Position numbers and translations under genes: made by a program. A stretch of DNA of 32,199 nt, from NCBI GenBank assembly GCA_964358975.1, contig CAYHQT010000001.1, forward strand, positions 1 to 32,199, given 5' to 3'. The notes under the pieces were generated by a model. The model made no database searches. It was given only the letters and a program-made list of their open reading frames with translations, and had not been told where the DNA came from. Source of the stretch: an uncultured Candidatus Saccharibacteria bacterium. Lineage in GTDB: Bacteria; Patescibacteriota; Minisyncoccia; Phycocordibacterales; PALSA-1337. This document shows, piece by piece, positions 1-27,870 of the stretch; position 1 is the stretch's first letter; each line of letters opens with the position of its first letter.

Positions 1-626
1 ACAGCAGTGGGCAGAATAACAATGGAAACATGGTCGGCTGGACTTCCACATCCAGTGCCATCGTGGCTGGGAAGCTGGGGCAGGGGCTGAAGTTTGACGG
101 GGTGGATGATTTAGCGAAGATTAATCAGACCAGCGGTTTGCCTGTATTTACTATGGGCGGAAAAGCCTCGGTCGCTTTCTGGGTTAAAGGCTCTTCCCAG
201 GATAGTAAAACAATATGGTCCGAAAGTAGTAGCAGTAACTCGCCTTTGTATAACATTGTGACCAATAATACAAGTTGTGCTGGCCAAGCCAGCGGAAAGA
301 TTTGCATACAGATACGCACAGATGCCAGTGTAACTCTTAAACTTCAAGCTACCGCGAAAACAGTCCTTGATAATACCTGGCATCATGTTGTCTGGGTTGA
401 TAACGCGGGTGCGGCAGGAACGGCCTTATATATTGACGGCGTCAAAGATACAAATACTTTTACTTACACGCCATCGGGAGCGCTAACTTCAACCACCGAC
501 TGCATCGGGGCTTTGTGTCGAGGTTCAAATACAAACTTTTTCAACGGTAATATTGATGATGTGCGGGTTTATAATAGGGCCCTTACTGGTATCGAAGTCA
601 AACAGTTGTATAATATAGGAAGATAG
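1..626 (+). CDS. LamG-repeat secreted protein, C-terminal part (gene starts upstream of window)
   Basis: The frame is open from nt 3 with no upstream stop and ends at TAG 624-626. Nt 1-110 nearly match 15968-16077 inside the complete paralog 15751..17907. LamG/Laminin_G_3-type motifs are present (GKLGQGLKFDGVDD ... IDDVRVYNRAL..VKQLYNIGR). Confidence 0.85.
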   Translation, partial: SSGQNNNGNMVGWTSTSSAIVAGKLGQGLKFDGVDDLAKINQTSGLPVFTMGGKASVAFWVKGSSQDSKTIWSESSSSNSPLYNIVTNNTSCAGQASGKICIQIRTDASVTLKLQATAKTVLDNTWHHVVWVDNAGAAGTALYIDGVKDTNTFTYTPSGALTSTTDCIGALCRGSNTNFFNGNIDDVRVYNRALTGIEVKQLYNIGR

Positions 627-3600: not shown

Positions 3601-4387
3601 CTTTGTGACAAAAAACAATATATTCTATGTACCCACAAACCCAAATAATTCCGGTAACTTCATAGACTTTAGAGTTTTTGATTATTCTGTGAATGACATT
3701 ATTTATGATTATAACATTTTGGCCGGTACAGGAAGTCTAGGAATAGGCTATAAGGGGATTTCGTACGCTAGTCCGGAAGCGTTCAATGCCGCCTTTCCTC
3801 AATATAATCATAATTCCTCCCTCAAACCTCTAATGGTTAATCCCGCTTCCTTTGATTTTCGCTTATTATCCTCTGATACCGCCACGCGAAACAGTGGGGC
3901 GGATTTATCGTCTTATTGCACCGCGGCTTATGGCTGGAGCCAGAGCAATTGTCCTTTGACTAAAGATATTGACGGAATTTCGCGCCCCCAAGGCTCCGCC
4001 TGGGATATCGGCGCCTACGAATACTATTCTGGCCAGACGGTCACTCCTCCCGTATCAACTCCAATCAACGGCTCCTGCTCTGCCACCCTGAACCAATGTC
4101 TCACCGGCGCCTTCTCTGATGTGGCCGACACCTCCACCAATTACCTCTGGTCTTGCCTAGGAAGCAACGGCGGCACAACCGCTTCCTGTAGTCTACCTAT
4201 TACATCTGTTACTCCTCCCACCCCCACCACCGGCGACTTCAACAACGACGGTTTGGTCAATTCCATAGACCTTTCTCTAATGATTACTGCCTGGAATACG
4301 AACAACACTATTTATGACCTCAACAGAGACGGCAGAGTGAACTCTCTAGACTATGTGAACATGGTGCGGAATTGGACGATGGTGTAG
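665..4387 (+). CDS. Giant surface protein: TM leader - LamG - Fn3-like x3 - right-handed beta-helix - 4-Cys module - dockerin
   Basis: 1240-aa ORF. Leader: KTEYGIAIIFSAFILATTLINQSW..ADQTIQSIP. LamG signature: GLVGWWKFDEGSGT ... VDDVRVYNRVLSADEI. Fn3-like repeats span aa ~330-640. NN[IL]-rich beta-helix repeats end in SRPQGSAWDIGAYEY. The dockerin has two Ca-loop repeats (DFNNDGLVNSID / DLNRDGRVNSLD). Confidence 0.9.
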   Translation: MFPKIKTEYGIAIIFSAFILATTLINQSWREFVLIADQTIQSIPARTQLASASDGADPGLVGWWKFDEGSGTSAADSSGSGNNGRLINNPLWATGKNGTAISLNGTTQLIRNTMTSGLPVFTMGGKASVAFWVKGSPQDNKIIWAESSNSGSPLYQIIADTTNCTGHASGKICIQIRTNTSNTILLQATAKTVLDNTWHHVVWVDNAGAAGTAVYVDGVKDTNTFTYTPSGTLTSTTDCIGALCRSSNSNFFSGSVDDVRVYNRVLSADEITTLYNNDLSAVGTAPVSDTQTPTTPASPDPIIPILSDPTSTTQGNVTLVTPHLIVADPARNWYGGPNNQLGYDILNLALTRDGNTTDKVEVQWSSDGNVWIGNNNTYTPDIFISVPALPYNVKEFYRIRAKVAVSGSYQYSNWSNILPVVSLYPPNTFTAVAKNRTSVYLTWAYRGAKDRSGQEYELLPGSGYKIERSIDPNFPASNTRIITVSQPYTLIPNPNNNAKKLVVYTDNSVFTDETYYYRVHAFTTVGDGETSKVVSLAPNRLPDPVEYSATYMTADSSNAVAIPFNTNTRGQTGYRIDRSDDSVNWTTIKSSSSILSSNPYVDRGLISGKTYYYRVIATNDVGDSPYNLLKVDVPNGAPANTTQWYVNNSVTGGNNNGASWTNAWHNFSSINWYAIKPGDSIYISGGTSGQIYTETLYVMKGGIEGNQVTIKVGNDSSHHGKITLKNGIMFRAPWVTLNGAKDSSFSFSNLENIVANQNIEVQNPNDNSCIYSSAPEGTRILWIDLNGCGSPTGPQTLEGNTAGVLFRGPSIRGSEIAYNYAHDILGTGLAVSAPADTYGLSAIHHNIIERTHNDFIIGSGGLDIYNNIARNWVRPGIGHPDGFQIWAPYIRIYNNIIHDTPGTLVYIQLQSAASKGVQIFNNIMYWTETEENSAITFSTIANGVTLSDVVIANNLVYNLNKGQLSLNVQQNITPISVRNFVTKNNIFYVPTNPNNSGNFIDFRVFDYSVNDIIYDYNILAGTGSLGIGYKGISYASPEAFNAAFPQYNHNSSLKPLMVNPASFDFRLLSSDTATRNSGADLSSYCTAAYGWSQSNCPLTKDIDGISRPQGSAWDIGAYEYYSGQTVTPPVSTPINGSCSATLNQCLTGAFSDVADTSTNYLWSCLGSNGGTTASCSLPITSVTPPTPTTGDFNNDGLVNSIDLSLMITAWNTNNTIYDLNRDGRVNSLDYVNMVRNWTMV

Positions 4388-4449: not shown

Positions 4450-4953
4450 ATGATTAAAAAGGAAAACAATTACGCTTTCATAGACAGTCAAAATCTTAAT
4501 CTGGGTATTCAAAAGCTCGGTTGGAAATTAGACTACAAAAAGTTTCGCGTTTATCTTGCCGAGAAATACGCGGTAAGGAAAGCATACATATTTATTGGAT
4601 TTGTAGCTCTTAATCAATCACTTTACGATAAGCTCCAAGAAGCTGAATTTATTTTAAAGTTCAAGCCAACAATTCCTGATGCTGACGGTAAAATTAAAGG
4701 AAATATTGACGCAGATCTTGTTTTGCGAGCAATTGTTGAATTAAATGATTATGATAAAGCAATTATTGTTTCAAGTGATGGAGATTTTTATTCACTGGCG
4801 CAATATTTGTATGATATCGGCAAGCTAGAACTTGTGCTTAGTCCGGACATGAAAAATTGCTCCAGCCTGCTCAGGCAAACAGCCAAGGAGAAAATCAGGT
4901 TTATGAATGAAATGAGAGAAAAGCTTGAATATAAAAAGAAAAGCACTGCTTAA
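4450..4953 (+). CDS. NYN-domain (LabA/PIN-like) putative ribonuclease
   Basis: 167 aa. N-terminal YAFIDSQNLNLG and C-terminal IIVSSDGDFYSLAQYL match the conserved acidic motifs of NYN/LabA-like proteins. Confidence 0.7.
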   Translation: MIKKENNYAFIDSQNLNLGIQKLGWKLDYKKFRVYLAEKYAVRKAYIFIGFVALNQSLYDKLQEAEFILKFKPTIPDADGKIKGNIDADLVLRAIVELNDYDKAIIVSSDGDFYSLAQYLYDIGKLELVLSPDMKNCSSLLRQTAKEKIRFMNEMREKLEYKKKSTA

Positions 4954-4975
4954 GGACGGAACCTCAAGCAGTACT
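4942..4975 (+). terminator. Hairpin spanning the NYN stop codon (possible terminator)
   Basis: agcactgcttaagg / cctcaagcagtact pair at 12 of 14 positions around a 6-nt loop. No clear T-run follows. Confidence 0.3.
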
Positions 4976-5030
4976 TAACTTTAGAAATACACTTGTAGTA
5001 TATATGAATCAAAAACCCTGTCAAGTACAT

Positions 5031-7424
5031 ATGTTCTCATCAATCAAAACTAAATACGGCATCGCCCTCTTACTTTCCACCTTTATCCTAACCCTCACTC
5101 TCATCAATCAGTCTTGGAAAGAGTTCATCTTGGTTGCCATCAGACAATCCAATACATTCCTTCCGCGCATACTCAACTAGCTCAAGTCGATGGTCCCTCG
5201 TCGCAAAGCTCCTCGGGACAATTAGCCCAAGGGCTAATTGGTTGGTGGAAATTTGACGAGGGGAGCGGAACGGTGGCGGGGGATTCAAGCGGGAGCGGAA
5301 ACAACGGCACGCTCATGAATGGAGCGGCGTGGACAACGAGCGGAAAGATTGGAGGAGCGCTGTCTTTTGATGGTCAGAATGACGAAGTTGTTCTTGATAA
5401 TTTTAGTGATCTTGATTTTAGCCAGGAAAACGCTTTTACATTCAGCGCTTGGGTATATCCTCTAGGTAATAACGCAGGCGATATTATTTTCTCAAGAGGC
5501 GGATCGTTTACAAACGCGGGGAATGCCGTTTATCATTTTGGCGTATTAAATGTAGATGCCACCCGTTGGGTTATTAGGATTAGTGACGGAACCAGCATCC
5601 TCAGCGCCGATTTTACCGGTTCGGTCTCCATCAATCAGTGGCAACTCATATCTGCAATCTGGGATGGAAGCACGCTTAAGTTGTACAAAGACGGAATACT
5701 GATAGCTTCCAGACTTAAGGGCAGTTTCACGGCGCTTTGGGATGGGGACACTGCCAAGAAGAGAGAAACATCTATTGGAGCTGATGGGGCTGAAGAGTAT
5801 CTTAATTGGAATGGTAAAATTGATGATATGCGAGTCTACTCTCGCGCCCTGTCCGCCGCCGAAATTACCGCTCTCTATAACTACACCGGAGGCGCGGCCA
5901 CCCCCGCTCCGGTTAATGGTTCCTGCTCAACCACTTTCAACCAGTGTGTAACCGGAACATTCTCCGACATTGCCGATACCGGCGCGAACTATCTTTGGAG
6001 CTGTAACGGTTCAAACGGAGGCGCAAACACTGCCTGCTCTCTGCCGATTCCATCTCAAAGCGACACCTCTCCCCCAGTTATCAACGGCCCTAATACGTAT
6101 TATGTTTTATTAACAGGCGTTGACACTAATCCCGGAACACAGGCCCAACCTTGGCGCACCATTAGGAAAGCGGCAACCGTTGCTCTTGCCGGAGATACCG
6201 TCGTTGTCGGCAACGGTTCATTTGATGAAATGGTTGAAACGAAACATACAGGCACGCAAGCTAATCCCATTACCTTTAGAGGCTCCGGACAAACAATTAT
6301 TCAAAGTTTCGGAATATTCCACGAATGGAACAATGTTGATAACTTTAAAATAACAGCCTCAAATGCTGTGATTTATGGCGCGATAACTTTTACAGCTAGC
6401 AATATCAGAATTACAAACAACACGATTTACAATATGCATGTAATGGCTATTAGAATGACTAATAACGGTGGAGGTAGTCCGACAGTCGATTCATGGCCGA
6501 CAAATGTGTATATAGGATACAACACGTGATATTATCGGGCTTGCCAAAGGGGCCGAAAATCACAATGATTTTATCCAGACATGGTATGTTGCCGGATTTC
6601 ATTCAAAGAATAACTTAATAGAAGGGAATTGGATTAAAGACAATTATTTTCAGCTATATAACTTGGAGGATGGCGACCATGGAGCGGATTATAACAACTG
6701 GACCTTTAGAAATAATATATTCATCAATAATAAAATGAACGGAAACCTCGGTATCCCGAATAGTAAATTCTATAATAATACTTTTTATCATAGTCCCTAT
6801 ACGGATGGCAGTTATAGCCCGATTGTTTGTTTCAATCAGCCGGGATTTCATGCGACGGGCGGGGTTGTCGTAAATAATCTTTTTGTAAACAATGGATTTG
6901 AAACGCCGGAATTCAAACTGGGATCTTATTCTAATGGGTCTGTATGTTCCGGAGATTACAACTTGGTAGTAGGTATGCCGCCGACTTTTTCAACTTTAAG
7001 ATCATCCCCATCATTCTCAGATGCTCATGGTTTAAATGGAGTTGACCCAATTTTTGTTGATCCTGAAAATGGAGATTTCAGATTGCAGGCCGGAAGTCCT
7101 GCCATAGGAGCTGGCACTGCACTTAATGGAACATTTACGACTGATTATAATGGAGTAACACGTGGGGCATCTTGGGACATTGGCGCCTATGAATACTATT
7201 CCGGCCAGCCGATCACACCCCAGATTACTCCTCCGGTCATACCACCCATAGTTCCTCCCACCCCCATTATCGGAGATTTCAATGCCGACGGCGTAGTTAA
7301 CTCCATAGACCTTTCTCTAATGATAATCGCCTGGAATACGAGCAACACTATTTATGACCTCAACAGAGATGGAATTGTCAACTCTCTGGATTATGTGGTC
7401 ATGGTGCGGAATTGGACGGTGTAG
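5031..7424 (+). pseudogene. Leader-type LamG - 4-Cys - beta-helix - dockerin gene disrupted by two frameshifts
   Basis: ATG 5031 opens a canonical leader (MFSSIKTKYGIALLLSTFILTLTLINQSWKEF) that stops at ~5177. Relative to paralogs, 1 nt is missing at ~5139-5144, and the body continues in the frame of ORF 5114..6529. A second frame change at ~6516-6529 joins ORF 6663..7424, whose frame is open back to 6516 (..HNDFIQTW..). The pieces together reconstitute the family architecture. Confidence 0.8.
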
Positions 7425-9852: not shown

Positions 9853-9912
9853 AGGGATGGCAGAGTGAACTCTCTCGACTATGTGGTGATGGTGCGGAAT
9901 TGGACGGTGTAA
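9853..9912 (+). repeat. Solo copy of a dockerin-gene 3' end (~60 nt, ends in TAA)
   Basis: gatggcagagtgaactctctcgactatgtggtgatggtgcggaattggacggtgtaa aligns to the ends of the dockerin ORFs (e.g. 4328-4387). It starts ~7 nt after the HEPN stop. Confidence 0.9.
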
Positions 9913-12204: not shown

Positions 12205-15105
12205 ATGCCAATATTCCAGAGAATACTTTTCAAAGATATTATCAAAACCGAACACGGCATTGTCCTCTTACTTTCCAGTTTCATTCTCGTCACCACTCTC
12301 ATTGGTCAAAGTTGGAATGATTTTGCCTTGATTGCCGACCAGACCATTCAATCTATTCCAGCGCATACTCAACTAGCTCAAGTTAGCAGTCCCTCGTCGT
12401 TCTTCTCTTTCGCTTACGCTCAGGATCAGAACTCCTCTGGACAATTAGCCCAAGGGCTAATTGGCTGGTGGAAGTTTGACGAGGGCTCCGGCACGACCGC
12501 GGGGGATTCAAGCGGGAATGGAAATAATGGGACGCTGGTGAATTTTCCTACGAATAATTCTGGATGGATCGGAGGAGCCCTCTCTTTTGACGGGGTGGAT
12601 GATTATGTAAATGTTCCTGCTGTTAATTCGTTTTCCGCTAATGCTCCGATGACAATTAGCGCATGGTTCAAACCGGCCACAATCAATACTGGTGGTTCAG
12701 TGAAGTGCATTGTCTGTATCCCTAATCAAACATATGATGCCGCGGGAATAGGATATTTAAACAATAATCTAAGCTTCGCAATCGGCACTGAAACCTATGA
12801 TACCGGCGGAGTAAATGGAGGCAGCATAGTGGCGAATAAGTGGTATTTTATAACAGGAACATTCAACGGAACTGTGCAGAAACTTTATCTTAATGGTGCG
12901 TATGTAAATCAAAGTTTATCCGCGACATTAAATGCTTTTTCTTCATTAAAAATTGGCGGAAACGGAGGTGGTACTCGTTATTTCAAAGGTTCTCTCGACG
13001 ACGTCCGCGTCTACAACCGTGCCCTTTCCCAAGACGAGATCACTCAGCTCTATGCTCTTGGTTCCGCTCAAACGCCTTCCGACACCACCGCTCCTTCGGT
13101 GCCCACATCTTTTTCTGCCACAGCCATATCTTCCTCCCAAATCAATCTTTTCTGGACTGCTTCTACCGATAATACGGTCGTAACCGGTTACAAAATATAC
13201 AGAGGAGGAACGCAGGTCGGGACTTCAGCCACTAACTCATATTCTGATACTGGTCTTACCGCGGATACTTTATACTCGTACACCATTTCCGCTTACGATG
13301 CTGCCGGAAACATATCTTCACAGTCTTCCTCGGCTTCCGCTACCACACAACCCGCTTCTGTTTCCATCTACACTCTTACCGTTTCCAAATCAGGCACTGC
13401 CGCCGGCACAGTTTCTGGTGGTTCAATCAATTGCGGCTCTACTTGCGTCCAATCAAACATTACGGCAGGCACATCAATCACTCTAACCGCCGTTCCTAAC
13501 TCCAACTCCACTTTTACCGGCTGGTCTGGAGGCGGATGTTCTGGAACAGGAACTTGCTCTGTAACCGTTAACTCCGATTCAATCATAACTGCCACATTTA
13601 CCCAAAACCAGACTCAAGCTTCGGGTAATAAGTATATTACCCCCAATGGCGCTGGATTAAAGGATGGTTCGGACTGGGCAAATGCCTATGCCGGATTGCC
13701 TGCCTCGGGAACTCTGCAACGAGGAGCGACATATTATTTTTCAGCCGGAACATACGTAATCCCCTATACATTTTATAGCCTGAAACACAAATTTAATGAC
13801 CCTAATGACGGCACAAAAGTAATTACGATAAAGAAAGCAACTGCCGCGGAGCACGGCACGGATGTCGGCTGGCAGACAAGTTACGGAGGAATGAGCATCT
13901 GGACAGCTTCAGCAGGGGAGGGCACACATGCCATGCTTTGGTTCATTACGGACTACTATGTATTTGACGGCGGTTCAAGGGATCAATGCATACTTGACGC
14001 GAATAATACCGTCGAAGGACAAGCAGGGTTTATTCGGACTGACGGGTCGCATATTACCATTTCAAATTGCACGATTACAAAATATCTCGAATCTAAAGTC
14101 GTGCTCAATGGGGGTTCATACAATACGTTTTCACATTTATATTTTATAAACAACTATAAAAGCGATATTTTTTATCTTTGGGGGAGCTATAACACTATCA
14201 GCTATAACGAAGTGGACGGGTCAACGGAGCCTGCCGATCCCAATCCATCCTCGGGGAATCACGCGGACTTTGTTCAGACATTTGATATTAATACCCCGGG
14301 AACTATAGCTACTGATAATCTGATCGAATACAATTATGTTCATGATTCTCCTACACGCCAGTTATTTATGCTCTCGCAAATGCATTCCTCCTCTCGTTTT
14401 GAAAACTGGACATTTAGGAACAATATCTTTGCAAACACAGCGCCTGGATTTTCAGCGACAGTTGGCATAAACCTCTATAATAATATCTTTTATAATGTCG
14501 GCACTCTAAGCCATACCTATGCCGCATTTATCGGCCTGGGTTCCATTGCTTTTAATAATGCATTTTTATCCGGAACCGCCGGCCTTCTTTATTCTGGAGG
14601 GGCTAACCCAAATATCGATTATAACTATTTCGCTAATATTACAAATAATTATGCCGCACCAAGCTATTTTAATGTAAGTAGCATCGGAACACATAATATT
14701 TTGGGAGGAACTCCTGATTTTGTAAATGAAGCTCTGCAGGATTTTCATTTAAAACCAGGCAGCAGGATTATAGATGCGGGCATTGCTCCCGCAATATCTT
14801 TCGTTGATTATGATGGGGTTTCTCGCCCCCAAGGCTCGGCTTGGGACATTGGCGCTTACGAATACTATTCAGGCCAGTCGGTTACTCCACCTGTTTCAAA
14901 TCCAGTAAATAGTTTACCGATCACACCCGTCACTCCTCCTACCCTTATCATCGGCGACTTCAATAACGACGGCATAGTCAATTCCATTGACCTTTCTCTC
15001 ATGATTACCGCCTGGAATACGAGCAACACTATTTATGACCTCAACAGAGATGGAGCAGTCAACTCTCTGGATTATGTGATGATGGTAAGGAATTGGACGG
15101 TGTAA
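12205..15105 (+). CDS. Giant surface protein: TM leader - LamG - Fn3 - B-repeat-like Cys domain - beta-helix - dockerin
   Basis: 966 aa with the family leader (..EHGIVLLLSSFILVTTLIGQSW..ADQTIQSIP). LamG: GLIGWWKFDEGSGT...LDDVRVYNRALSQDEI. Fn3: APSVPTSFSATAISSSQINLFW. Divergent InlB-B-repeat-like domain: YTLTVSKSGTAAGTVSGGSINCGSTC...FTGWSGGGCSGTGTCSV. The beta-helix ends in SRPQGSAWDIGAYEY and is followed by the dockerin. Confidence 0.9.
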   Translation: MPIFQRILFKDIIKTEHGIVLLLSSFILVTTLIGQSWNDFALIADQTIQSIPAHTQLAQVSSPSSFFSFAYAQDQNSSGQLAQGLIGWWKFDEGSGTTAGDSSGNGNNGTLVNFPTNNSGWIGGALSFDGVDDYVNVPAVNSFSANAPMTISAWFKPATINTGGSVKCIVCIPNQTYDAAGIGYLNNNLSFAIGTETYDTGGVNGGSIVANKWYFITGTFNGTVQKLYLNGAYVNQSLSATLNAFSSLKIGGNGGGTRYFKGSLDDVRVYNRALSQDEITQLYALGSAQTPSDTTAPSVPTSFSATAISSSQINLFWTASTDNTVVTGYKIYRGGTQVGTSATNSYSDTGLTADTLYSYTISAYDAAGNISSQSSSASATTQPASVSIYTLTVSKSGTAAGTVSGGSINCGSTCVQSNITAGTSITLTAVPNSNSTFTGWSGGGCSGTGTCSVTVNSDSIITATFTQNQTQASGNKYITPNGAGLKDGSDWANAYAGLPASGTLQRGATYYFSAGTYVIPYTFYSLKHKFNDPNDGTKVITIKKATAAEHGTDVGWQTSYGGMSIWTASAGEGTHAMLWFITDYYVFDGGSRDQCILDANNTVEGQAGFIRTDGSHITISNCTITKYLESKVVLNGGSYNTFSHLYFINNYKSDIFYLWGSYNTISYNEVDGSTEPADPNPSSGNHADFVQTFDINTPGTIATDNLIEYNYVHDSPTRQLFMLSQMHSSSRFENWTFRNNIFANTAPGFSATVGINLYNNIFYNVGTLSHTYAAFIGLGSIAFNNAFLSGTAGLLYSGGANPNIDYNYFANITNNYAAPSYFNVSSIGTHNILGGTPDFVNEALQDFHLKPGSRIIDAGIAPAISFVDYDGVSRPQGSAWDIGAYEYYSGQSVTPPVSNPVNSLPITPVTPPTLIIGDFNNDGIVNSIDLSLMITAWNTSNTIYDLNRDGAVNSLDYVMMVRNWTV

Positions 15106-15113
15106 ACGAACGC

Positions 15114-15142
15114 TTGACTTTCCTGTTATTTTTGCCTAATAT
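15114..15142 (+). promoter_or_regulatory. Sigma70-type promoter for hicBA, leaderless
   Basis: TTGACT (15114-15119), 17-nt spacer, TAATAT (15137-15142), ggaacc, then ATG 15149. Confidence 0.6.
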
Positions 15143-15148
15143 GGAACC

Positions 15149-15385
15149 ATGAAGCATATCATTCAATTCTCTATTACGCGAGAAGACGGCACCTATACTG
15201 CCAATGGTGTCAATGTGCCTATTGTTACAGAAGGTAAAACTTTTGAGGAATTAGAAGGCAATATACATGAAGCTGTCGGACTATATTTCGATGGTGAAGA
15301 TCCGACTTCGTTGGGCTTCGTTGCGTCCCCGGCAGTTCTTACCAACTTTGAACTTATCCCCGCTGTCTATGGAAGTAAAGCTTAA
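15149..15385 (+). CDS. hicB: HicB-family antitoxin (short UPF0150-type)
   Basis: 78 aa. The motif ..TREDGTYTANGVNVPIVTEGKTFEELEGNIHEAVGLYF is typical of the HicB N-domain. It overlaps the hicA start. Confidence 0.75.
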   Translation: MKHIIQFSITREDGTYTANGVNVPIVTEGKTFEELEGNIHEAVGLYFDGEDPTSLGFVASPAVLTNFELIPAVYGSKA

Positions 15386-15611
15386 AGTATTGTCAGGGAT
15401 ACAAGTGACCAAAATTCTGGAGAATTACGGTTTTTCTGTTCATGCACAAAATGGAAGTCATATAAAGTTGAGAAGAACAACAATGGGCATAAGAGAGATT
15501 TTGATTGTTCCGAATCATAACCCTATTGCAAAAGGAACCTTGAAAGCAATTTTCACCCAAGCATCGCAATACATTTCAGAAACTGAATTGAGGAAACATT
15601 TTTATAATTGA
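15369..15611 (+). CDS. hicA: HicA-family mRNA interferase toxin
   Basis: MEVKLKVLSGIQVTKILENYGFSVHAQNGSHIKLRR...VPNHNPIAKGTLKAI matches the HicA dsRBD-like pattern. The start was set at internal ATG 15369; the track ORF starts at 15267 inside hicB. Confidence 0.75.
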   Translation: MEVKLKVLSGIQVTKILENYGFSVHAQNGSHIKLRRTTMGIREILIVPNHNPIAKGTLKAIFTQASQYISETELRKHFYN

Positions 15612-15616
15612 TTTTA

Positions 15617-15695
15617 ACTCCCTCGATGACGTGCACATCTACTCTCGCGCCCTGTCGGCCAACAAAGTGAAGCAGTTGTATAATCTGGGGAGATA
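15617..15695 (+). repeat. Solo 3' end of a LamG-repeat gene (encodes NSLDDVHIYSRALSANKVKQLYNLGR*)
   Basis: It aligns with the last codons of 30..626 (IDDVRVYNRALTGIEVKQLYNIGR*) and 15751..17907. It starts 6 nt after the hicA stop and has no ORF body upstream. Confidence 0.85.
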
Positions 15696-15703
15696 GGGGA
15701 GCC

Positions 15704-15724
15704 GAAAAAGGTCGGACCTTTTTC
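15704..15724 (+). terminator. A/T-rich palindrome (gaaaaaggtc g gacctttttc), possible bidirectional terminator
   Basis: Perfect 10-nt inverted arms, but the stem is weak. It lies between the solo fragment and the next promoter. Confidence 0.3.
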
Positions 15725-15735
15725 CCGCGATAATG

Positions 15736-15744
15736 TGTTAAAAT
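15736..15744 (+). promoter_or_regulatory. Extended -10 (TGtTAAAAT), 6 nt upstream of ATG 15751 (leaderless)
   Basis: TAAAAT 15739-15744, ataccc, then ATG. Confidence 0.5.
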
Positions 15745-15750
15745 ATACCC

Positions 15751-17907
15751 ATGCGCTCGAAGTTAGAATTTAGAATTTGGAATTTGGAATTTTGGGCAAA
15801 AATTCTATTTTTTGTTTTTATTATTCTATATTCCATATTCCATATTCCAAATTCCGTAAAAGCCTCCTTCGTCTCAAACTCTTCCTCCAATTTCACCAAC
15901 ACCTTGAAAACCGGCCTAGTCGGCTGGTGGACTTTTGACGGCGCCAATATGAAGAATAATGTGACCGACAGCAGTGGGCAGAATAACAATGGAAACATGG
16001 TCGGCTGGACTTCCACATCCAGCGCCATCGTGGCGGGCAAGCTGGGGCAGGGGTTGAGGTTTGATGGGGTGAATGATGTTGTAACGGGCCCAACCTACAA
16101 TGGCGTAAAAACAGTCTCATTCTGGCTAAAGCCCAATTCCACAACCCAGCAAATCTTAATGCTAGATGCCAATCTTGCTTCAACCAGCGTAAGTTCCGGA
16201 ACGATATCCGCCAACAATTTCACCAGTCCTACTATTTATGTAGACGGCGCTGTTTCTTCCACTATCTCAAATACCAATTGGCATTTCATTACCATTACAA
16301 CCGCGACAACCATCAACGCTTCCGCCATTAAAATAGGTCAAACCGGAACCGGGTATTATAAAGGTCTCCTCGACGACGTCCGCGTTTACAACCGAGTATT
16401 ATCCGCCAGCGAAGTTAAACAGCTCTACTCCATGGGCGCCGACACGAAAATGAACATTACGCCAACGGCTTGGCCAAGCCCGCTTAAGCAAGGACTGACT
16501 CTCTGGTGGACGCTGGACGGCGCCGACACGAAATGGAATACGCAAAAAGAGAATGATAAAAGCGGTACCGGCTCCGCGGGGTCGGTGGGAACGCTCGCGG
16601 GTTTTTCCACTTCAACCAGCGTGCTTCCGGGTAAAATGGGGCAGGCGCTCTCCTTTAACGGCGCCAGCAATGTTTATTCAACGAATGCCATATCCGCTTT
16701 TATGAGCAACGCGACGGGCACGATGTCTCTTTGGTTCTACCCAAAAAACGGCAACTCCGGTACCTGTTCGGACGGCAGTATGTCAGCTCTTATTTCCGAC
16801 TATGACGGCGTAAGCCTCGGCGGTTACGCTTGGCTCGGCTATGACGGCGCCAATCTTTGCGCCGGCGGCTATGACGGCGTCCTGCGCGTGATTTCTTCGG
16901 CTGTTTCAAAAAACAAGTGGACGCACGCAGTTTGGGTTCATAAGAACGGAGTGCTCACGCTCTGGAAAGACGGCGCTCTGGTCAGCGCGCAAACGCTCGG
17001 CAATATCTCCGATATTTCGCGCCCTATGTACCTCGGCCGCTCTTATCTCAACACTTATTTTAACGGATATTTGGATGATGTTCGCATGTACTCAACCGCC
17101 CTCTCCACTTCTACCATCCAGACACTCTACAATGCCGGCGCGAGCACGAAAGTTAATGTCTCTTTAAGTCCGCCGCAAAGTTTGGGACAAACGAACTTGA
17201 TGACGGGACTCGTCGGCTGGTGGACCTTCGACGGCAAGGACACCAACTGGGCCACCGGCGTGACGAACGATAAGTCTGGAAATAGTAACAACGGGCAACT
17301 TATCAATATGTCAACGAGCACGAGCGTGGTCCGGGGGAAGCTGGGGCAGGGGTTGAAGTTTGATGGAATTAGTGGCGCATCTTCCGGTACCTATGTGAAT
17401 GTAGGGTCACCTACAACATTGACAAACCTCTCTGCTTTAACAGTGTCGGTATGGGCGAAAACAAATGGTTACGGTGTATCTGGTCAGGGTGTTCTTGTCA
17501 GCAAAAAAAGCTGGTATGGCGCAGGTGACGGATGGCTTTTTAGCGTTAATAGCTCATATCACGACATTGATTTTTTCCGAAAATACGATGGAGGCACATC
17601 CTTGGATGTTCTCTCCACCGCTAATACTTTGACAACTAGCGATTTTGGCAAATGGATTCATTGGACTGTAACAACTGATGGCACTGCAAACGCTTCAGGT
17701 GTTCACATCTACAAGAATGGCGTGGATGTTACAGGTACAACCGTTACTAACGGAGTCGGAAACAGATACAGTGATGCGGCAATCAATCTTGAATTAGGTA
17801 ATGTATTATACAATCAGACTTTTAATGGTGTTCTCGACGATATTCGCGTATACAATCGGGTGTTGTCCGTTACCGAAATCAAACAACTCTATAATATGGG
17901 TAAATAA
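15751..17907 (+). CDS. Secreted protein of four tandem LamG domains (Sec-type signal peptide)
   Basis: 718 aa. Signal: KILFFVFIILYSIFHIPNSVKA|SF. There are four LamG units. Three open with GL[VT][GL]WWT[FL]DG (nt ~15916, 16492, 17206) and the second, internal unit lacks this opener. Each ends with LDD[VI]R[VM]Y..LS...[IV].[QT]LY. Confidence 0.9.
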   Translation: MRSKLEFRIWNLEFWAKILFFVFIILYSIFHIPNSVKASFVSNSSSNFTNTLKTGLVGWWTFDGANMKNNVTDSSGQNNNGNMVGWTSTSSAIVAGKLGQGLRFDGVNDVVTGPTYNGVKTVSFWLKPNSTTQQILMLDANLASTSVSSGTISANNFTSPTIYVDGAVSSTISNTNWHFITITTATTINASAIKIGQTGTGYYKGLLDDVRVYNRVLSASEVKQLYSMGADTKMNITPTAWPSPLKQGLTLWWTLDGADTKWNTQKENDKSGTGSAGSVGTLAGFSTSTSVLPGKMGQALSFNGASNVYSTNAISAFMSNATGTMSLWFYPKNGNSGTCSDGSMSALISDYDGVSLGGYAWLGYDGANLCAGGYDGVLRVISSAVSKNKWTHAVWVHKNGVLTLWKDGALVSAQTLGNISDISRPMYLGRSYLNTYFNGYLDDVRMYSTALSTSTIQTLYNAGASTKVNVSLSPPQSLGQTNLMTGLVGWWTFDGKDTNWATGVTNDKSGNSNNGQLINMSTSTSVVRGKLGQGLKFDGISGASSGTYVNVGSPTTLTNLSALTVSVWAKTNGYGVSGQGVLVSKKSWYGAGDGWLFSVNSSYHDIDFFRKYDGGTSLDVLSTANTLTTSDFGKWIHWTVTTDGTANASGVHIYKNGVDVTGTTVTNGVGNRYSDAAINLELGNVLYNQTFNGVLDDIRVYNRVLSVTEIKQLYNMGK

Positions 17908-17913
17908 AGTTAT

Positions 17914-20676
17914 ATGTTTTCATCTATCAAAATATTTATTAAGACTGAATACGGTATAGCTATTTTACTGTCCAGTTTTATTTTAGCTCTCACCCTCATC
18001 GGCCAGTCTTGGAATGATTTTGTTTTAGTTGCTGACCAAACAATCCAATCCATTCCTTCCTCCGCCAGCTGGCGGAATACCCAACTAGCTTCCGCTGAAG
18101 GCACTGATTTACTAACACAAGGGTTAGTTGGATGGTGGAAATTTGACGAGGGGAGCGGGACGACGGCGGGGGATGCGAGTGGCGGGGGGAATGTAGGGAT
18201 GTTTGTTAATGAACCGGCATGGGTTTCTATCACAAAGGCGAAAGTGGGGAATGGAGCGGTGCAGTTTAATGGTATTAACAATTACATATCAGTCGGAACC
18301 TTGGACTCATTTGGTGCCTCCAATGGTCAAACCCAAATGCAACAGGGCGTTACAATATCTCTTTGGCTAAAGACGACCAATAACTCAAGTATAATGACAT
18401 TGGTTGGTAACAGATCGCTCGGGCTCTCTCCAGGATTTGGTGTATCGTTGAATAGTGGTTTTTACGGAATGGTTCCCGGATCGATAAGAGTCAGTTGGTC
18501 GCAATCTTCTAATTACGGGTCATCATTCGCTTTTAACGCCAACAGATTGATAAACGACGGAAATTGGCATCTTCTAACCGTGGTAATCAAAATGCCCGGC
18601 ACACAGCAAATCTGGATTGATGGTACAAGCCGAAATGTTAGTATTGAACGTGATAGTTTTAGCACATACCAAACATGGTCTATCACTCCGTCGCTTGGAA
18701 TTGGCGCGGATATTATGAGTGCAACTACGGAGAACTATTTCTTGGGATTAATTGACGACGTCCGCGTTTACAACCGTGTCCTGTCAGCGGATGAAATAAG
18801 CCAACTCTATGCTCTTGGAGACAGCACTGTTGCTCCTGCCAATACCTCATCCCCATCAAGCCCTCTTTCTGTCACGACCGTGGCCGCAGCTCCAACCACT
18901 TACACTCTTACCGTTTCAAAGTCAGGAAGTGGCACAGGCGCTGTCACTGGCGGATCAATTTTCTGCGGTTCCACTTGTTCTCAATCCAGTATCACTTCAG
19001 GAACTTCAATCACCCTTTCCGCTACCCCAACATCAGGTTCGACCTTTACGGGTTGGAGCGGGGGAGGGTGTTCGGGAACTGATGTATGCCTGGTCACGCT
19101 TAACGCAGATACAAGCATACGGGCTACCTTTAGCACAGCATCAACACAGATTCCAGCCGGCGCTGACGTATATGTTGCGGCTAACGGCAATGATTCAACA
19201 TGCGCTAGAAACAATGTCACGAAGCCGTGCCTTACGCTTAGCAGAGCTTACACTGTATCTCAAGCGGGGGATGTCATAGAAATATCCGGTGGGACATATC
19301 CTGATCAGACCATACCGAAGCTATCCAAGGGAACCGCGATTGTAACATTCGAGCCGGCGTCTGGAGCGTCTGTAATTTTAGGAAGCGTTAATATTTATGC
19401 CAGTTATGTGGAATTGCGGAACATGGCGTCATCAGGAAGAATAGGGATAAATCCCGTAGCGACTGACTATCCATCAGGCACCAATCATATAACTCTGCGT
19501 AATATGAATGCTGAAAGCCTGGGCATCGTTGCTGAAGATGTTCTAGTTAAAGGCGGAAATTTCGGCGGATTTGACGCGTGTGACGCAAGCAAGCCTGAAG
19601 ATATTGTCCAAATTTGGGAAACGAGCAGGTCGGGGAATTGGTATGCTTCTTCAAGAGTTACAATTGATGGAGCGGTTATACATGATGTAACCGACCACAA
19701 CAATGCCTGTTCGGATGTGCCACCTCCAGCCCAAGGACGACATGTTGACTGCATGCAAATATTGTCCGGACATTTTATAACGGTCAGAAATTCTGTTTTC
19801 TATAATTGTGCAACGAGTGATATTATTGCCCGTCCGTTTCGTGTGGGATTAGATAATCTTTTGATTGAAAATAATTTTATGCAAGCAGTAATGAATCCTG
19901 GTTTAGCTTTAAATTTGGGAGACGGGTCGGATGTCTTTGGCGGCACAAATATTGTTAGATACAATACGATTTTTGGAGCGGCTGGAAGATGTTCTACTCC
20001 GGGCTGTCTTCAATTTTACGGTAATATCATAAATGCCGGTTACTGTCCGACTAATGTCAATGCGGTTTTTGATCATAATGTATTTATTTCTGGCTTGTCC
20101 AATCTCTCCAGTGCGTATCTGTGCGGTACCAATTTTAAACAAGGCAATCCTTCTTTCGTTGGACCCACGCCGAGTTCCTCATATTTAAACGGTATTATTC
20201 CGAATTATCATCTTGCGGCTAATGATGTGGTGGCGCTCGATTCCGGAGACCCGACGCGTTATCCGGCAACTGACATTGACGGTCAAACCCGTTTTTTTGG
20301 TTTAACTCCTGATGCTGGAGCAGATGAATACACAGGAAGTGGGGGAGTCACTCTCACAAACGGTCTCTGCTCCACCACTCTCAATCAGTGTACAACAGGA
20401 ACATTCTCCGACCTTGCCGACACCTCCGCTAACTACCTCTGGTCATGCATGGGTTCCAACGGCGGTACTACCGCTTCCTGTAGTTTGCCTATCACACCAG
20501 TTACCCCCCCCACTCCAACCACCGGCGACTTCAACGCTGACGGCATAGTCAACTCCATAGACCTCTCTCTCATGATTACCGCCTGGAATACGAGCAACGC
20601 TACTTACGACCTTAACAGAGACGGCAGAGTGAATTCTCTAGATTATGTGATTATGGTGCGGAATTGGAGTATGTAG
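17914..20676 (+). CDS. Giant surface protein: TM leader - LamG - B-repeat-like Cys domain - beta-helix - 4-Cys module - dockerin
   Basis: 920 aa. It starts 6 nt after the upstream stop, so it is probably co-transcribed. It carries the leader, the LamG signature, YTLTVSKSGSGTGAVTGGSIFCGSTC..FTGWSGGGCSGTDVC, NGLCSTTLNQC..YLWSC..ASCSLPI, and the dockerin. Confidence 0.9.
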   Translation: MFSSIKIFIKTEYGIAILLSSFILALTLIGQSWNDFVLVADQTIQSIPSSASWRNTQLASAEGTDLLTQGLVGWWKFDEGSGTTAGDASGGGNVGMFVNEPAWVSITKAKVGNGAVQFNGINNYISVGTLDSFGASNGQTQMQQGVTISLWLKTTNNSSIMTLVGNRSLGLSPGFGVSLNSGFYGMVPGSIRVSWSQSSNYGSSFAFNANRLINDGNWHLLTVVIKMPGTQQIWIDGTSRNVSIERDSFSTYQTWSITPSLGIGADIMSATTENYFLGLIDDVRVYNRVLSADEISQLYALGDSTVAPANTSSPSSPLSVTTVAAAPTTYTLTVSKSGSGTGAVTGGSIFCGSTCSQSSITSGTSITLSATPTSGSTFTGWSGGGCSGTDVCLVTLNADTSIRATFSTASTQIPAGADVYVAANGNDSTCARNNVTKPCLTLSRAYTVSQAGDVIEISGGTYPDQTIPKLSKGTAIVTFEPASGASVILGSVNIYASYVELRNMASSGRIGINPVATDYPSGTNHITLRNMNAESLGIVAEDVLVKGGNFGGFDACDASKPEDIVQIWETSRSGNWYASSRVTIDGAVIHDVTDHNNACSDVPPPAQGRHVDCMQILSGHFITVRNSVFYNCATSDIIARPFRVGLDNLLIENNFMQAVMNPGLALNLGDGSDVFGGTNIVRYNTIFGAAGRCSTPGCLQFYGNIINAGYCPTNVNAVFDHNVFISGLSNLSSAYLCGTNFKQGNPSFVGPTPSSSYLNGIIPNYHLAANDVVALDSGDPTRYPATDIDGQTRFFGLTPDAGADEYTGSGGVTLTNGLCSTTLNQCTTGTFSDLADTSANYLWSCMGSNGGTTASCSLPITPVTPPTPTTGDFNADGIVNSIDLSLMITAWNTSNATYDLNRDGRVNSLDYVIMVRNWSM

Positions 20677-21438: not shown

Positions 21439-21531
21439 TGGAATACGAGCAACACTATTTACGACCTTAATAGAGATGGTATCGTTAATTCTCTGGATTA
21501 TGTGATGATGGTAAGGAATTGGAGTATGTAA
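21439..21531 (+). repeat. Solo copy of a dockerin-gene 3' end (93 nt; encodes WNTSNTIYDLNRDGIVNSLDYVMMVRNWSM*)
   Basis: It aligns to 20584-20676 and 15013-15105. It begins 3 nt after the HEPN-remnant stop and has no ORF body upstream. Confidence 0.9.
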
Positions 21532-22848: not shown

Positions 22849-22957
22849 TCTAATGACCACCGCCTGGAACACGAACAACGCTACTTATGACCTTAACAGA
22901 GACGGCAGAGTGAACTCTCTGGACTATGCCATCATGGTGCGGAATTGGACGGTGTAG
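22849..22957 (+). repeat. Solo copy of a dockerin-gene 3' end (109 nt; encodes LMTTAWNTNNATYDLNRDGRVNSLDYAIMVRNWTV*)
   Basis: It aligns to 4279-4387 and 20568-20676. It begins ~14 nt after the ATPase stop. Confidence 0.9.
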
Positions 22958-27817: not shown

Positions 27818-27870
27818 GGATGAATACATCATAGCAAGGTGATAAATAAGTGTCAAGCGTCATTATCCAC

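What the first reader, a model, noticed from the sequence alone, without database searches (positions are those of the whole stretch)
15106..15750. The HicBA cassette is followed by a solo 3' end of the other (LamG-repeat) gene family
Six nt after the hicA stop lies a 79-nt fragment (15617-15695) encoding NSLDDVHIYSRALSANKVKQLYNLGR*. This is the exact C-terminus type of the LamG-repeat family (30..626, 15751..17907), and there is no ORF body. A second, unrelated conserved gene end thus shows the same pattern: cassette stop codon, then a solo gene 3' end. That argues for a general mechanism, either insertion inside the last codons of family genes or deletions anchored there, rather than a dockerin-specific sequence.
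Basis: partly seen in the sequence, partly recalled or inferred. Interest (0 to 1): 0.65.

Follow-up and report, generated by a model that had tools for sequence, protein, structure and literature searches.

The report
Orphan LamG gene tail behind hicBA
Right after a HicBA toxin-antitoxin pair in an uncultured groundwater bacterium lie the last 26 codons of a surface-protein gene with no gene body; similar stubs sit next to such cassettes in several related genomes, and they look like scars of recombination at a highly conserved gene end, not parts of a new insertion machine.

Summary
hicB (15149-15385) and hicA (15372-15611) are followed after 4 nt by an 81-nt stub (15616-15696) that encodes NSLDDVHIYSRALSANKVKQLYNLGR*. 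This is the end motif of a LamG domain with a terminal stop and no body.

The stub shows decay: R->H and E->K at positions that are 95-96% conserved, and one missing Gly codon.

The pattern is not confined to dockerin ends. I found comparable solo LamG tails next to hicBA, NYN, RelBE-like, MNT-HEPN or IS200-like genes in six other Patescibacteria loci. They include the closest hicBA relative, which has a tail on both sides.

- Stub lengths are bimodal against intact genes, so random deletion is unlikely.
- Stubs differ from neighbouring intact tails mostly by synonymous changes, so they are remains of once-functional separate copies.
- Their left edges vary, they do not fold, and no recombinase is nearby. 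Cassette genes (MNT, hicA) leave 3' stubs too.

Best reading: a recombination scar anchored on the conserved, GC3-rich LamG tail core. It resembles Rhs and T6SS displacement arrays.

Moderate interest.

The parts
12205..15105 (+). Complete dockerin-type family gene (LamG, FN3, beta-helix, dockerin). Its intact tail ...NSLDYVMMVRNWTV* is the left neighbour of hicBA.
   Evidence: Translation. Pfam Laminin_G_3, fn3, Beta_helix and Dockerin_1.
15114..15142 (+). Promoter-like site TTGACT-17-TAATAT, 6 nt before the hicB ATG. It forms the left part of the cassette.
   Evidence: Consensus scan. Homology to relative L015 starts at 15137.
15149..15385 (+). hicB antitoxin gene (78 aa).
   Evidence: Twenty homologues, some named HicB family by their sources. 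No Pfam hit at E 0.01.
15372..15611 (+). hicA toxin gene (79 aa). It overlaps hicB by 14 nt and is full length.
   Evidence: Pfam PF07927, E 6.6e-14. The C-terminus matches relatives.
15616..15696 (+). Solo 3' end of a LamG-repeat gene: 26 codons plus TAG, with no gene body. It carries R->H, E->K and a missing Gly codon relative to the family consensus.
15704..15724 (.). Inverted repeat GAAAAAGG-TCGGA-CCTTTTTC downstream of the stub's stop. It may be the old terminator of the lost gene, but it is not a canonical terminator.
   Evidence: Self-match on the opposite strand. Fold shown. No terminator call. Other community contigs diverge from the window just past the stub's stop, at about 15695.
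15736..15744 (+). TGTTAAAAT, a -10-like box 6 nt before the ATG of the next gene.
   Evidence: Sequence.
15751..17907 (+). Intact LamG-repeat gene (three LamG domains). It ends ...LDDIRVYNRVLSVTEIKQLYNMGK*, the same end type as the stub.
   Evidence: Translation. Pfam Laminin_G_3, E 7.5e-43.

Best explanation
The 81-nt stretch is a non-functional relic. It is the tail of a LamG-repeat paralog or allele that once lay between the dockerin-type gene 12205-15105 (or hicBA) and the LamG-repeat gene 15751-17907. Its body was removed or replaced in a recombination event whose right-hand joint fell in the conserved tail core of the LamG domain (..[LI]DDVR[IV]YNRALS..E[IV]..LY..G).

That core is the longest stretch of near-identical DNA shared by paralogs and by related genomes. 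It therefore acts as a portable homology arm. A cassette that sits between two conserved family segments can replace a family-gene body by ordinary RecA-type recombination, or by homology-facilitated illegitimate recombination. Either route leaves 'cassette stop codon, then solo tail'. The toxin-antitoxin pair then persists because losing it is costly, while the stub slowly decays.

Shown here: the stub and its decay; its recurrence in other genomes; the bimodal length distribution; the mainly synonymous divergence between stubs and intact tails; and the conserved DNA core. Inferred: the actual event at this locus and the enzymes involved.
For: (1) Anatomy and decay. The stub abuts the conserved end of the hicBA cassette within about 2 nt (TGATTTTA is shared with L110 and L180). 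R->H and E->K fall at positions held by R in 188 of 196 and by E in 186 of 196 LamG ends. One Gly codon is missing.

(2) Recurrence. The closest hicBA relative (L014, HicB 81% identical) has a solo LamG tail after hicA and another before hicB. L080 has hicBA 73 nt behind an intact LamG-repeat gene. L110 (Cand. Taylorbacteria) reads LamG gene, NYN, solo tail, hicBA. L107 reads LamG gene, RelBE-like pair, solo tail, NYN, solo tail. L105, L106 and L118 also carry solo tails.

(3) Bimodality. Among 46 terminal LamG tails, 34 have at least 390 open codons upstream, 12 have at most 115, and none lies between.

(4) Stubs derive from once-functional separate copies. Counts of synonymous against non-synonymous codon differences from the neighbouring intact tail are L118 13/0, L110 9/3 and L107 13/4. 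The window's dockerin stubs show the same trend in most comparisons with the nearest intact tail, for example 7/1 for the stub ending at 9912, but not for the one ending at 22957.

(5) DNA core. GC3 of the 12-codon core is 0.62 against 0.42 in the 600 nt upstream. The 29-32-nt string ATCGACGACGTCCGCRTCTACAACCGCGCGCT recurs in different genomes.

(6) No sign of a dedicated site. Left edges vary, the stubs do not fold (z +1.1 and +0.3), Rfam gives no credible match (only two chance-level hits outside the stub), and no recombinase is visible in the window.

(7) Cassette genes leave 3' stubs too: an MNT tail in L110 and a hicA tail in L176.

(8) A precedent exists for displacement through homology-facilitated illegitimate recombination that shifts a gene's 3' end downstream (PMC5361080).
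Against: No orthologous locus with the intact gene or an empty site was found. The best homologue of gene 15751 is 46% identical. The same-population contigs L001-L003 and the groundwater runs X1-X4 show only the present arrangement, at about 5x depth.

The left flank is a dockerin-type tail, not a LamG-repeat tail. At least two events, or a donor that was already chimeric, are therefore needed.

Ordinary recombination does not by itself explain why the left edges sit within a few nucleotides of the cassette stop codons. It also does not explain why only 3' ends survive.

Confidence: 0.6

Rival explanations
1. The cassette carries its own tail, as e14 does at icd. The mobile unit would be 'replacement tail, intergenic DNA, cassette'. 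It integrates into the tail of a family gene, either through a circular intermediate (Campbell type) or through an unknown site-specific enzyme. That rebuilds an intact gene on the left and displaces the resident tail to the right. Repeated integration builds integron-like arrays.
For: The layout 'intact tail, insert, partial tail' with synonymous differences between the two tails (L118, L110, L107) matches icd, e14 and the icdC pseudogene (PMC13626634). Arrays of gene, cassette, stub, cassette, stub occur in L107 and in the window. Stub lengths are bimodal. Earlier scan notes from other genomes describe the same layout (unchecked leads).
Against: At this locus the left neighbour is a dockerin-type tail, so the two flanks do not match. 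Stub left edges vary by up to about 45 nt. Cassette left boundaries and intergenic DNA are not conserved between hicBA loci. No integrase lies in the window. No excision joints appear in the read lay. The stubs have no hairpin structure.
Confidence: 0.17
2. Plain pseudogene decay. A LamG-repeat paralog downstream of hicBA was whittled away by unrelated random deletions in a streamlined genome. The last 81 nt survive by chance or because they are young.
For: The stub shows decay. L014 stub 1 and L107 stub 1 carry frameshifts. Longer half-domain relics exist in L125, L130 and L151. Leader-plus-dockerin relics occur in the window.
Against: If right-hand breakpoints were spread evenly over genes of about 700 codons, 12 of 12 relics would not end up at 115 codons or fewer; my rough estimate of that chance is (115/700)^12, about 4e-10 (data). 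In addition, eight of the 12 have fewer than 45 open codons upstream of the terminal RAL motif. In the window, seven stubs start within about 15 nt of an intact upstream stop codon.
Confidence: 0.13
3. A hairpin-guided single-strand transposase system (Y1, RAYT or IS200-like) creates the joints. Small palindromic elements and Y1 transposase genes target the LamG tail core, and their cutting or insertion produces the stubs.
For: A Y-shaped 52-nt element is inserted at the VRI|YNRAL codon junction in L014. It also sits directly after a LamG stop in L110, and it occurs in both orientations. A 100-nt element with terminal inverted repeats separates the intact tail from the stub in L118 and recurs at cassette borders there. 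A Y1_Tnp gene lies between the intact tail and the stub in L105, and Y1-like genes occur in at least seven LamG loci.
Against: The window has none of these: no Y-hairpin, no TIR element and no Y1 gene. Its junction carries no inserted element. IS200/IS605-type insertion does not duplicate flanking sequence, so it does not by itself give two tails.
Confidence: 0.07
4. The stub is functional. It could be a terminator or insulator for hicBA, a regulatory RNA, or a peptide made by frameshifting from hicA.
For: A 9-bp inverted repeat follows the stub. The stub frame is +1 relative to hicA and is open from 15591.
Against: The scan called no terminator. Folding is no better than for shuffled sequence and Rfam gives no credible match. 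The spacing between hicA and the stub differs in L014 (21 nt against 4 nt). Substitutions fall at the best-conserved residues. The stub matches the family only at the coding level.
Confidence: 0.03

Closest known systems
Orphan or displacement arrays of polymorphic-toxin loci: Rhs 'C-terminal displacement', cdiA and mafB orphans, and Vibrio cholerae T6SS effector-immunity arrays (Kirchberger et al. 2017, PMC5361080; Jackson et al. 2009, cited there)
   Same: Co-oriented arrays in which self-contained two-gene modules are separated by short leftover pieces of a conserved gene. The proposed origin is recombination anchored on a conserved segment plus an illegitimate or short-homology joint, which shifts a resident 3' end downstream. 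No integrase is involved.
   Different: In those systems the conserved anchor lies upstream of a variable toxin tip, and each orphan keeps a toxin tip plus its immunity gene. Here the leftover is the extreme, conserved 3' end of a non-toxin surface protein. The modules are unrelated toxin-antitoxin or defence cassettes with their own promoters. The stub follows the cassette and carries no variable part.
Integration into the 3' end of a protein-coding gene with a replacement end: e14 at icd, leaving the icdC pseudogene (PMC13626634; Hill et al. 1989, cited there)
   Same: An intact gene end lies on the left of the insert and a displaced partial 3' end on the right. The two copies differ mainly by synonymous changes, as in L118, L110 and L107.
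   Different: e14 is a 15-kb prophage with its own integrase and a fixed core site. Here the inserts are 0.1-1.5 kb, carry no integrase, and their joint positions vary. In the window the left flank belongs to the other gene family.
Integron cassette arrays, including sedentary chromosomal integrons rich in toxin-antitoxin cassettes, and CALINs
   Same: Co-oriented small cassettes, many of them toxin-antitoxin pairs, each followed by a repeated element of 50-110 nt.
   Different: There is no intI and no attI. The repeats are coding-sequence relics with no attC-like imperfect palindrome. Their lengths and edges vary, and each cassette has its own promoter.
Defence and toxin-antitoxin islands at recombination hotspots flanked by conserved genes
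   Same: Diverse toxin-antitoxin and defence genes (HicBA, MNT-HEPN, AbiE, NYN, RelE/ParE, ATPases) pile up between conserved genes, turn over quickly, and leave decayed copies.
   Different: Here the flanking conserved 'genes' are many tandem paralogs of one surface-protein family. Their short conserved ends are repeated inside the island.

Membership tests
Type II toxin-antitoxin system HicBA | HicA toxin domain (PF07927) | tested here: met
   15372-15611 matches HicA_toxin at E 6.6e-14, 52 bits against a cut-off of 27.
Type II toxin-antitoxin system HicBA | A small HicB antitoxin gene directly upstream, in one operon with hicA | tested here: met
   15149-15385 overlaps hicA by 14 nt. Homologues are named HicB family by JGI and NCBI, and relatives keep the pair. 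There is no Pfam hit at E 0.01, so it is a short HicB without a DNA-binding domain.
Type II toxin-antitoxin system HicBA | Toxicity of HicA and its neutralisation by HicB | not testable with these tools
   This needs expression in a laboratory strain.
LamG (Laminin_G_3) domain gene | A complete concanavalin-like beta-sandwich domain of about 150-200 residues | tested here: not met
   Only the last 26 residues are present and hicA ends 4 nt upstream. The stretch is a fragment, not a gene.
LamG (Laminin_G_3) domain gene | The C-terminal strand motif [LI]DDVR[IV]YNRALS..E[IV]..LY..G | tested here: met
   tblastn gives E 2e-8 to 5e-5 to eleven other LamG ends in the window. Alignment A2. Two consensus positions are substituted.
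Integron cassette array | An integron integrase (intI) and attI next to the array | tested here: not met
   No tyrosine recombinase appears among the window's translated ORFs or in the Pfam scans of its unknown ORFs.
Integron cassette array | attC sites: imperfect palindromes that fold as single strands, with fixed cassette borders | tested here: not met
   The LamG and dockerin stubs fold no better than shuffled sequence on either strand (z +1.1, +0.3, -1.0, +0.7). Stub left edges vary.
Rhs / CDI / T6SS displacement (orphan) arrays | Each orphan keeps a piece of the conserved region joined to a variable toxin tip and its immunity gene | tested here: not met
   The stubs are the conserved extreme 3' end only. 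The neighbouring modules are independent toxin-antitoxin cassettes with their own promoters. The array works like such a system but is not a member.
Rhs / CDI / T6SS displacement (orphan) arrays | Leftover pieces derive from formerly functional copies displaced by recombination at a conserved segment | tested here: inconclusive
   Mainly synonymous divergence from intact tails, bimodal lengths and a conserved DNA core fit this feature. No before-and-after pair of loci was found.
Integrative element with a replacement gene end (icd/e14 type) | The element encodes an integrase and uses a fixed core site inside the target gene's 3' end | tested here: not met
   The cassette has no integrase, and joint positions vary.

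The most novel reading that the evidence does not exclude
The conserved tail core of LamG (and dockerin) surface-protein genes serves as the docking site of an integrase-less cassette platform that is widespread in Patescibacteria. Toxin-antitoxin and defence cassettes would be captured, stacked and exchanged behind surface-protein genes through this core. The agent would be either RecA acting on a DNA core kept GC-rich and near-identical across genomes, or hairpin-guided Y1 transposases. In logic this would be an integron analogue that uses coding sequence as its 'att' site.
Probability: 0.15. Interest if true: 0.85.

Novelty: new variant of a known kind. Interest (0 to 1): 0.5.

Why it matters
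Patescibacteria have tiny genomes yet keep large, fast-changing arrays of surface-protein paralogs interleaved with toxin-antitoxin and defence genes. If a short, unusually conserved piece of coding DNA at the end of these genes acts as a shared homology arm, that would explain how selfish cassettes spread between paralogous loci and between strains without any dedicated recombinase. It would also explain why surface-protein genes are lost and replaced so quickly in these episymbionts. This single stub extends the pattern from dockerin ends to a second, unrelated gene end. The same cassette family (hicBA) sits next to LamG tails in four independent loci. That makes the idea testable by a systematic census and by long-read population data.

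Tried and rejected

2. Exact look-up of HicA and of the 15751 protein: not on record. The HicB look-up returned only three identical same-locus contigs from Hainich well H43.

3. Orthologous locus through homologues of gene 15751: the best hit is 46% identical, so no ortholog is available. The 'extra domains' on some hits (PemK, GIY-YIG, IVS protein) turned out to be N-terminal fusions made by gene callers, not tail insertions.

4. Population variants in four groundwater runs: only the present junction appears, at about 5x depth. Other contigs match the stub at only about 85% and diverge at its stop.

5. Of 80 metagenome loci with hicB relatives, only L080 has LamG ends nearby. The link therefore holds only in lineages that have LamG arrays and is not a property of hicBA itself.

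6. The Y-hairpin element of L014 and L110 is absent from the window and has no Rfam family.

7. attC-like folding of the stubs: rejected.

8. A HicA-stub fusion by frameshifting: considered and rejected, because the spacing and frame are not conserved in L014.

9. Silent-cassette (antigenic variation) donors: rejected, because the stubs hold only the invariant part of the gene.

10. Further hicB relatives (L176-L180) showed no LamG tails.

Full report
**1. What is there**

The window is a co-oriented array from a groundwater Patescibacteria contig. Contig names point to Hainich well H43, and HicB relatives are named Candidatus Taylorbacteria. Two kinds of large surface-protein paralogs alternate in it:
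- 'LamG-repeat' genes: 3-626 (partial), 15751-17907 and 30506 onwards.
- 'Dockerin-type' genes with LamG, beta-helix and dockerin domains: 665-4387, 5114-7424 (broken), 12205-15105, 17914-20676 and 27850-30474.

Between them lie small cassettes: NYN, AbiEi/AbiEii, MNT-HEPN, HicBA, ATPases and RelE-like genes.

At the finding, hicB (15149-15385) and hicA (15372-15611; Pfam HicA_toxin, E 6.6e-14) follow a promoter-like site. The hicA stop (15609-15611) is followed by TTTT. Then 15616-15696 encodes NSLDDVHIYSRALSANKVKQLYNLGR*. This matches every other LamG-domain end in the window (tblastn E 2e-8 to 5e-5). It has a stop directly after the motif, like the true gene ends at 626 and 17907.

No LamG body can be hidden upstream, for three reasons:
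- HicA is full length compared with its relatives.
- Cassette homology to relatives runs to 15613.
- The string TGATTTTA after hicA is shared with L110 and L180.

The stub has family-gene composition (52% GC, against 39% for hicBA). Behind it come an inverted repeat (15704-15724), a -10-like box and gene 15751.

**2. The stub is decaying**

In 196 LamG-end motifs collected from the window and 82 other loci, the position after DDV is R in 188 and H in 3. The E of '..E[IV]' is E in 186 and K only in this stub. Against six family tails the stub also lacks the Gly codon of 'NG[SN][IL]DD'. Other stubs show frameshifts or insertions (L014 stubs 1 and 2, L107 stub 1).

**3. The pattern recurs elsewhere**

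The look-up of HicB homologues and their contigs gave these loci:
- L014, the closest relative (81% identity). After hicA come 21 nt, then GSIDDVRI, a roughly 105-nt hairpin insertion, NRALSASEVSRLYNAGR*, and then an NYN gene. Before hicB lies another stub, which follows the stop of a different cassette.
- L080, which has hicBA 73 nt behind an intact LamG-repeat gene.
- The other 79 of 80 metagenome loci with hicB relatives, which have no LamG ends. The link therefore belongs to lineages with LamG arrays, not to hicBA as such.

A genome scan with an alignment of LamG tails plus motif scans found further solo tails:
- L110 (Cand. Taylorbacteria): LamG gene, NYN, solo tail, hicBA, solo MNT tail, and then a further LamG tail split by two insertions.
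- L107: LamG gene, RelBE-like pair, solo tail, NYN, solo tail.
- L118: intact tail, a 100-nt TIR element, then a solo tail.
- L105: intact tail, a Y1_Tnp gene, then a solo tail.
- L106: a solo tail followed by NYN.

The same cassette types as in the window, co-oriented with the LamG genes, occur in about 20 of the 80 genome loci. Earlier notes of this scan report similar LamG stubs in other genomes. I treat these as leads only.

**4. What the comparisons say about origin**

(a) *Lengths.* I measured the open frame upstream of 46 terminal LamG tails. It is at least 390 codons in 34 and at most 115 codons in 12, with nothing in between. Eight of the 12 have fewer than 45 open codons. Random right-hand breakpoints in genes of about 700 codons would not give this.

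(b) *Divergence.* Stubs differ from the neighbouring intact tail mostly by synonymous codon changes:

| Locus | Synonymous | Non-synonymous |
|---|---|---|
| L118 | 13 | 0 |
| L110 | 9 | 3 |
| L107 | 13 | 4 |

The dockerin stubs of the window behave the same way in most comparisons with the nearest intact tail, although the stub ending at 22957 does not. The stubs are therefore remains of separate copies (paralogs or foreign alleles) that diverged while still coding. They are not decayed local duplications.

(c) *Left edges.* The edges differ between stubs: NG|S[IL]DD in the window, L014 stub 2, L107 (both) and L110; D|DVR in L105; Y|NRAL in L118 and L014 stub 1. They all lie inside the roughly 45-nt conserved core. 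That is where crossovers between diverged sequences would be expected, and it does not look like a single cut site.

(d) *The core at the DNA level.* The core is unusual: GC3 is 0.62, against 0.42 in the 600 nt upstream. The string ATCGACGACGTCCGCRTCTACAACCGCGCGCT recurs in genomes of 41-47% GC.

(e) *Cassette genes.* These leave 3' stubs as well, so the process is not specific to surface-protein genes. L110 has an MNT tail after hicA, followed by at least 105 nt that are 100% identical to the DNA behind the intact MNT gene. L176 has a hicA tail.

(f) *No site-specific signature.* The stubs do not fold. Rfam gives no credible match (two chance-level hits lie outside the stub). No recombinase or Y1 gene lies in the window.

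**5. Most likely mechanism**

I read the stub as a recombination scar. A cassette that lies between conserved family segments can replace the body of a family gene by double crossover. Here the left segment would be the dockerin-type gene and the right segment a LamG tail core. The first such joint can arise by homology-facilitated illegitimate recombination, as proposed for T6SS and Rhs displacement arrays (PMC5361080). The result is 'dockerin gene, hicBA, LamG tail, old downstream DNA, next LamG-repeat gene', which is what the window shows.

The canonical neighbour of a dockerin-type gene is a LamG-repeat gene (30474 followed by 30506). A lost LamG-repeat copy at this position is therefore plausible.

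The toxin-antitoxin pair resists loss, and the stub decays.

Shown: points 1-4 above. Inferred: the event itself, its direction and the enzymes.

**6. Rivals**

- *An e14/icd-like unit that carries a replacement tail* (PMC13626634). It fits L118, L110 and L107 well. It fits this locus poorly, because the flanks belong to different families, and it does not fit the variable edges.
- *Random decay.* It fails on the length distribution.
- *Hairpin elements and Y1 transposases.* They are real neighbours of LamG tails elsewhere but are absent here.
- *A function for the stub.* Nothing supports it.

**7. Limits**

- No ortholog of the flanking genes exists in the searched collections.
- The population data are shallow contigs.

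**8. Verdict**

Insertion into the last codons is not supported at this locus. Loss or replacement anchored at the conserved end, through ordinary recombination, is the best reading (about 0.6). The finding is a new variant of a known kind (orphan or displacement arrays) and is of moderate interest. A roughly 15% possibility remains that the tail core is the docking site of a genuine integrase-less cassette platform in Patescibacteria.

Noticed in passing
L014:538-589 and 1272-1321; L110:3888-3938 and 5670-5720: A 52-nt Y-shaped palindromic element (CCCTGTGAAA..two inner hairpins..TTTCACAGGG) occurs in two genomes and in both orientations. One inner stem shows a compensatory change (AGTCGC/GCGACT against AGTTGC/GCAACT). 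Fold z-scores are -4.9 to -7.6 and there is no Rfam family. It sits at the VRI|YNRAL codon junction of LamG tails or directly after a LamG stop.
   Followed up: partly
L118:5102-5204, 5798-5896, 7069-7167: A roughly 100-nt element with terminal inverted repeats CCCCGTTAGAGAGTTA / TAACTCTCTAACGGGG occurs three times in one locus. Each copy lies at a cassette border. One copy separates the intact LamG tail from its solo copy.
   Followed up: partly
L105:1311-1982; also L117, L154, L118, L096, L097, L107: IS200-like Y1 transposase genes (Pfam Y1_Tnp) are frequent neighbours of LamG genes in Patescibacteria loci. In L105 the gene lies exactly between an intact LamG tail and a solo tail. None is present in the window.
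   Followed up: partly
LamG tail cores in the window (e.g. 12994-13029) and in L105, L106, L107, L130: The 12-codon LamG tail core has GC3 of 0.62, against 0.42 in the 600 nt upstream. An almost identical DNA string (ATCGACGACGTCCGCRTCTACAACCGCGCGCT) appears in different genomes of 41-47% GC. This suggests conservation at the DNA level or frequent exchange.
   Followed up: partly
L110:5380-5565 versus 6550-6732: After hicA lies a solo 3' end of an MNT nucleotidyltransferase gene (about 85% identical to the intact MNT tail 0.9 kb downstream). It is followed by at least 105 nt that are 100% identical to the DNA behind that intact gene. There is a sharp switch in identity at the stop codon.
   Followed up: partly
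L176:2392-2625: An internally deleted hicBA: the first 58 codons of hicB are joined to the last roughly 17 codons of hicA (..QASRYISETELRKHFFS*). It lies next to a second, intact hicBA in a type IV pilus locus.
   Followed up: no
L004:87-342 and L005:2431-2686 (Hainich well H51): hicB is kept but hicA is deleted a few codons after its start, so only the antitoxin remains. A truncated HEPN gene (49 aa) lies upstream in L005.
   Followed up: no
window 15764-15856: An imperfect palindrome of about 90 nt spans the first codons of LamG-repeat gene 15751 (GAATTTAGAATTTGGAATTTGG ... CCATATTCCATATTCCAAATTCC). Public contigs join opposite strands here (joints 15764/15824 and 15766/15822), probably as assembly fold-backs.
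   Followed up: no
window 4940-4990; L107:4330-4375; L128:1390-1430; L100, L112, L141: NYN cassettes carry a conserved hairpin that includes their stop codon (AAGCACTGCTTAAGGACGGAACC..AAGCAGTGCT), followed by a conserved 3' flank of about 80 nt ending near TGTCAAGT.
   Followed up: no
Proteins P0131, P0057, P0078, P0029, P0086: Gene callers fuse small selfish genes to the N-terminus of the LamG gene that follows them. The fused genes are a PemK toxin, a GIY-YIG nuclease and a 23S-rRNA-IVS four-helix-bundle protein. Such genes therefore often sit immediately upstream of LamG genes without an in-frame stop.
   Followed up: no
window 21439-21531: The dockerin stub is a mosaic. Its middle matches gene 12205-15105 (GATTATGTGATGATGGTAAGG) and its end matches gene 17914-20676 (AATTGGAGTATGTA, NWSM*). 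This is a sign of gene conversion among tails.
   Followed up: partly
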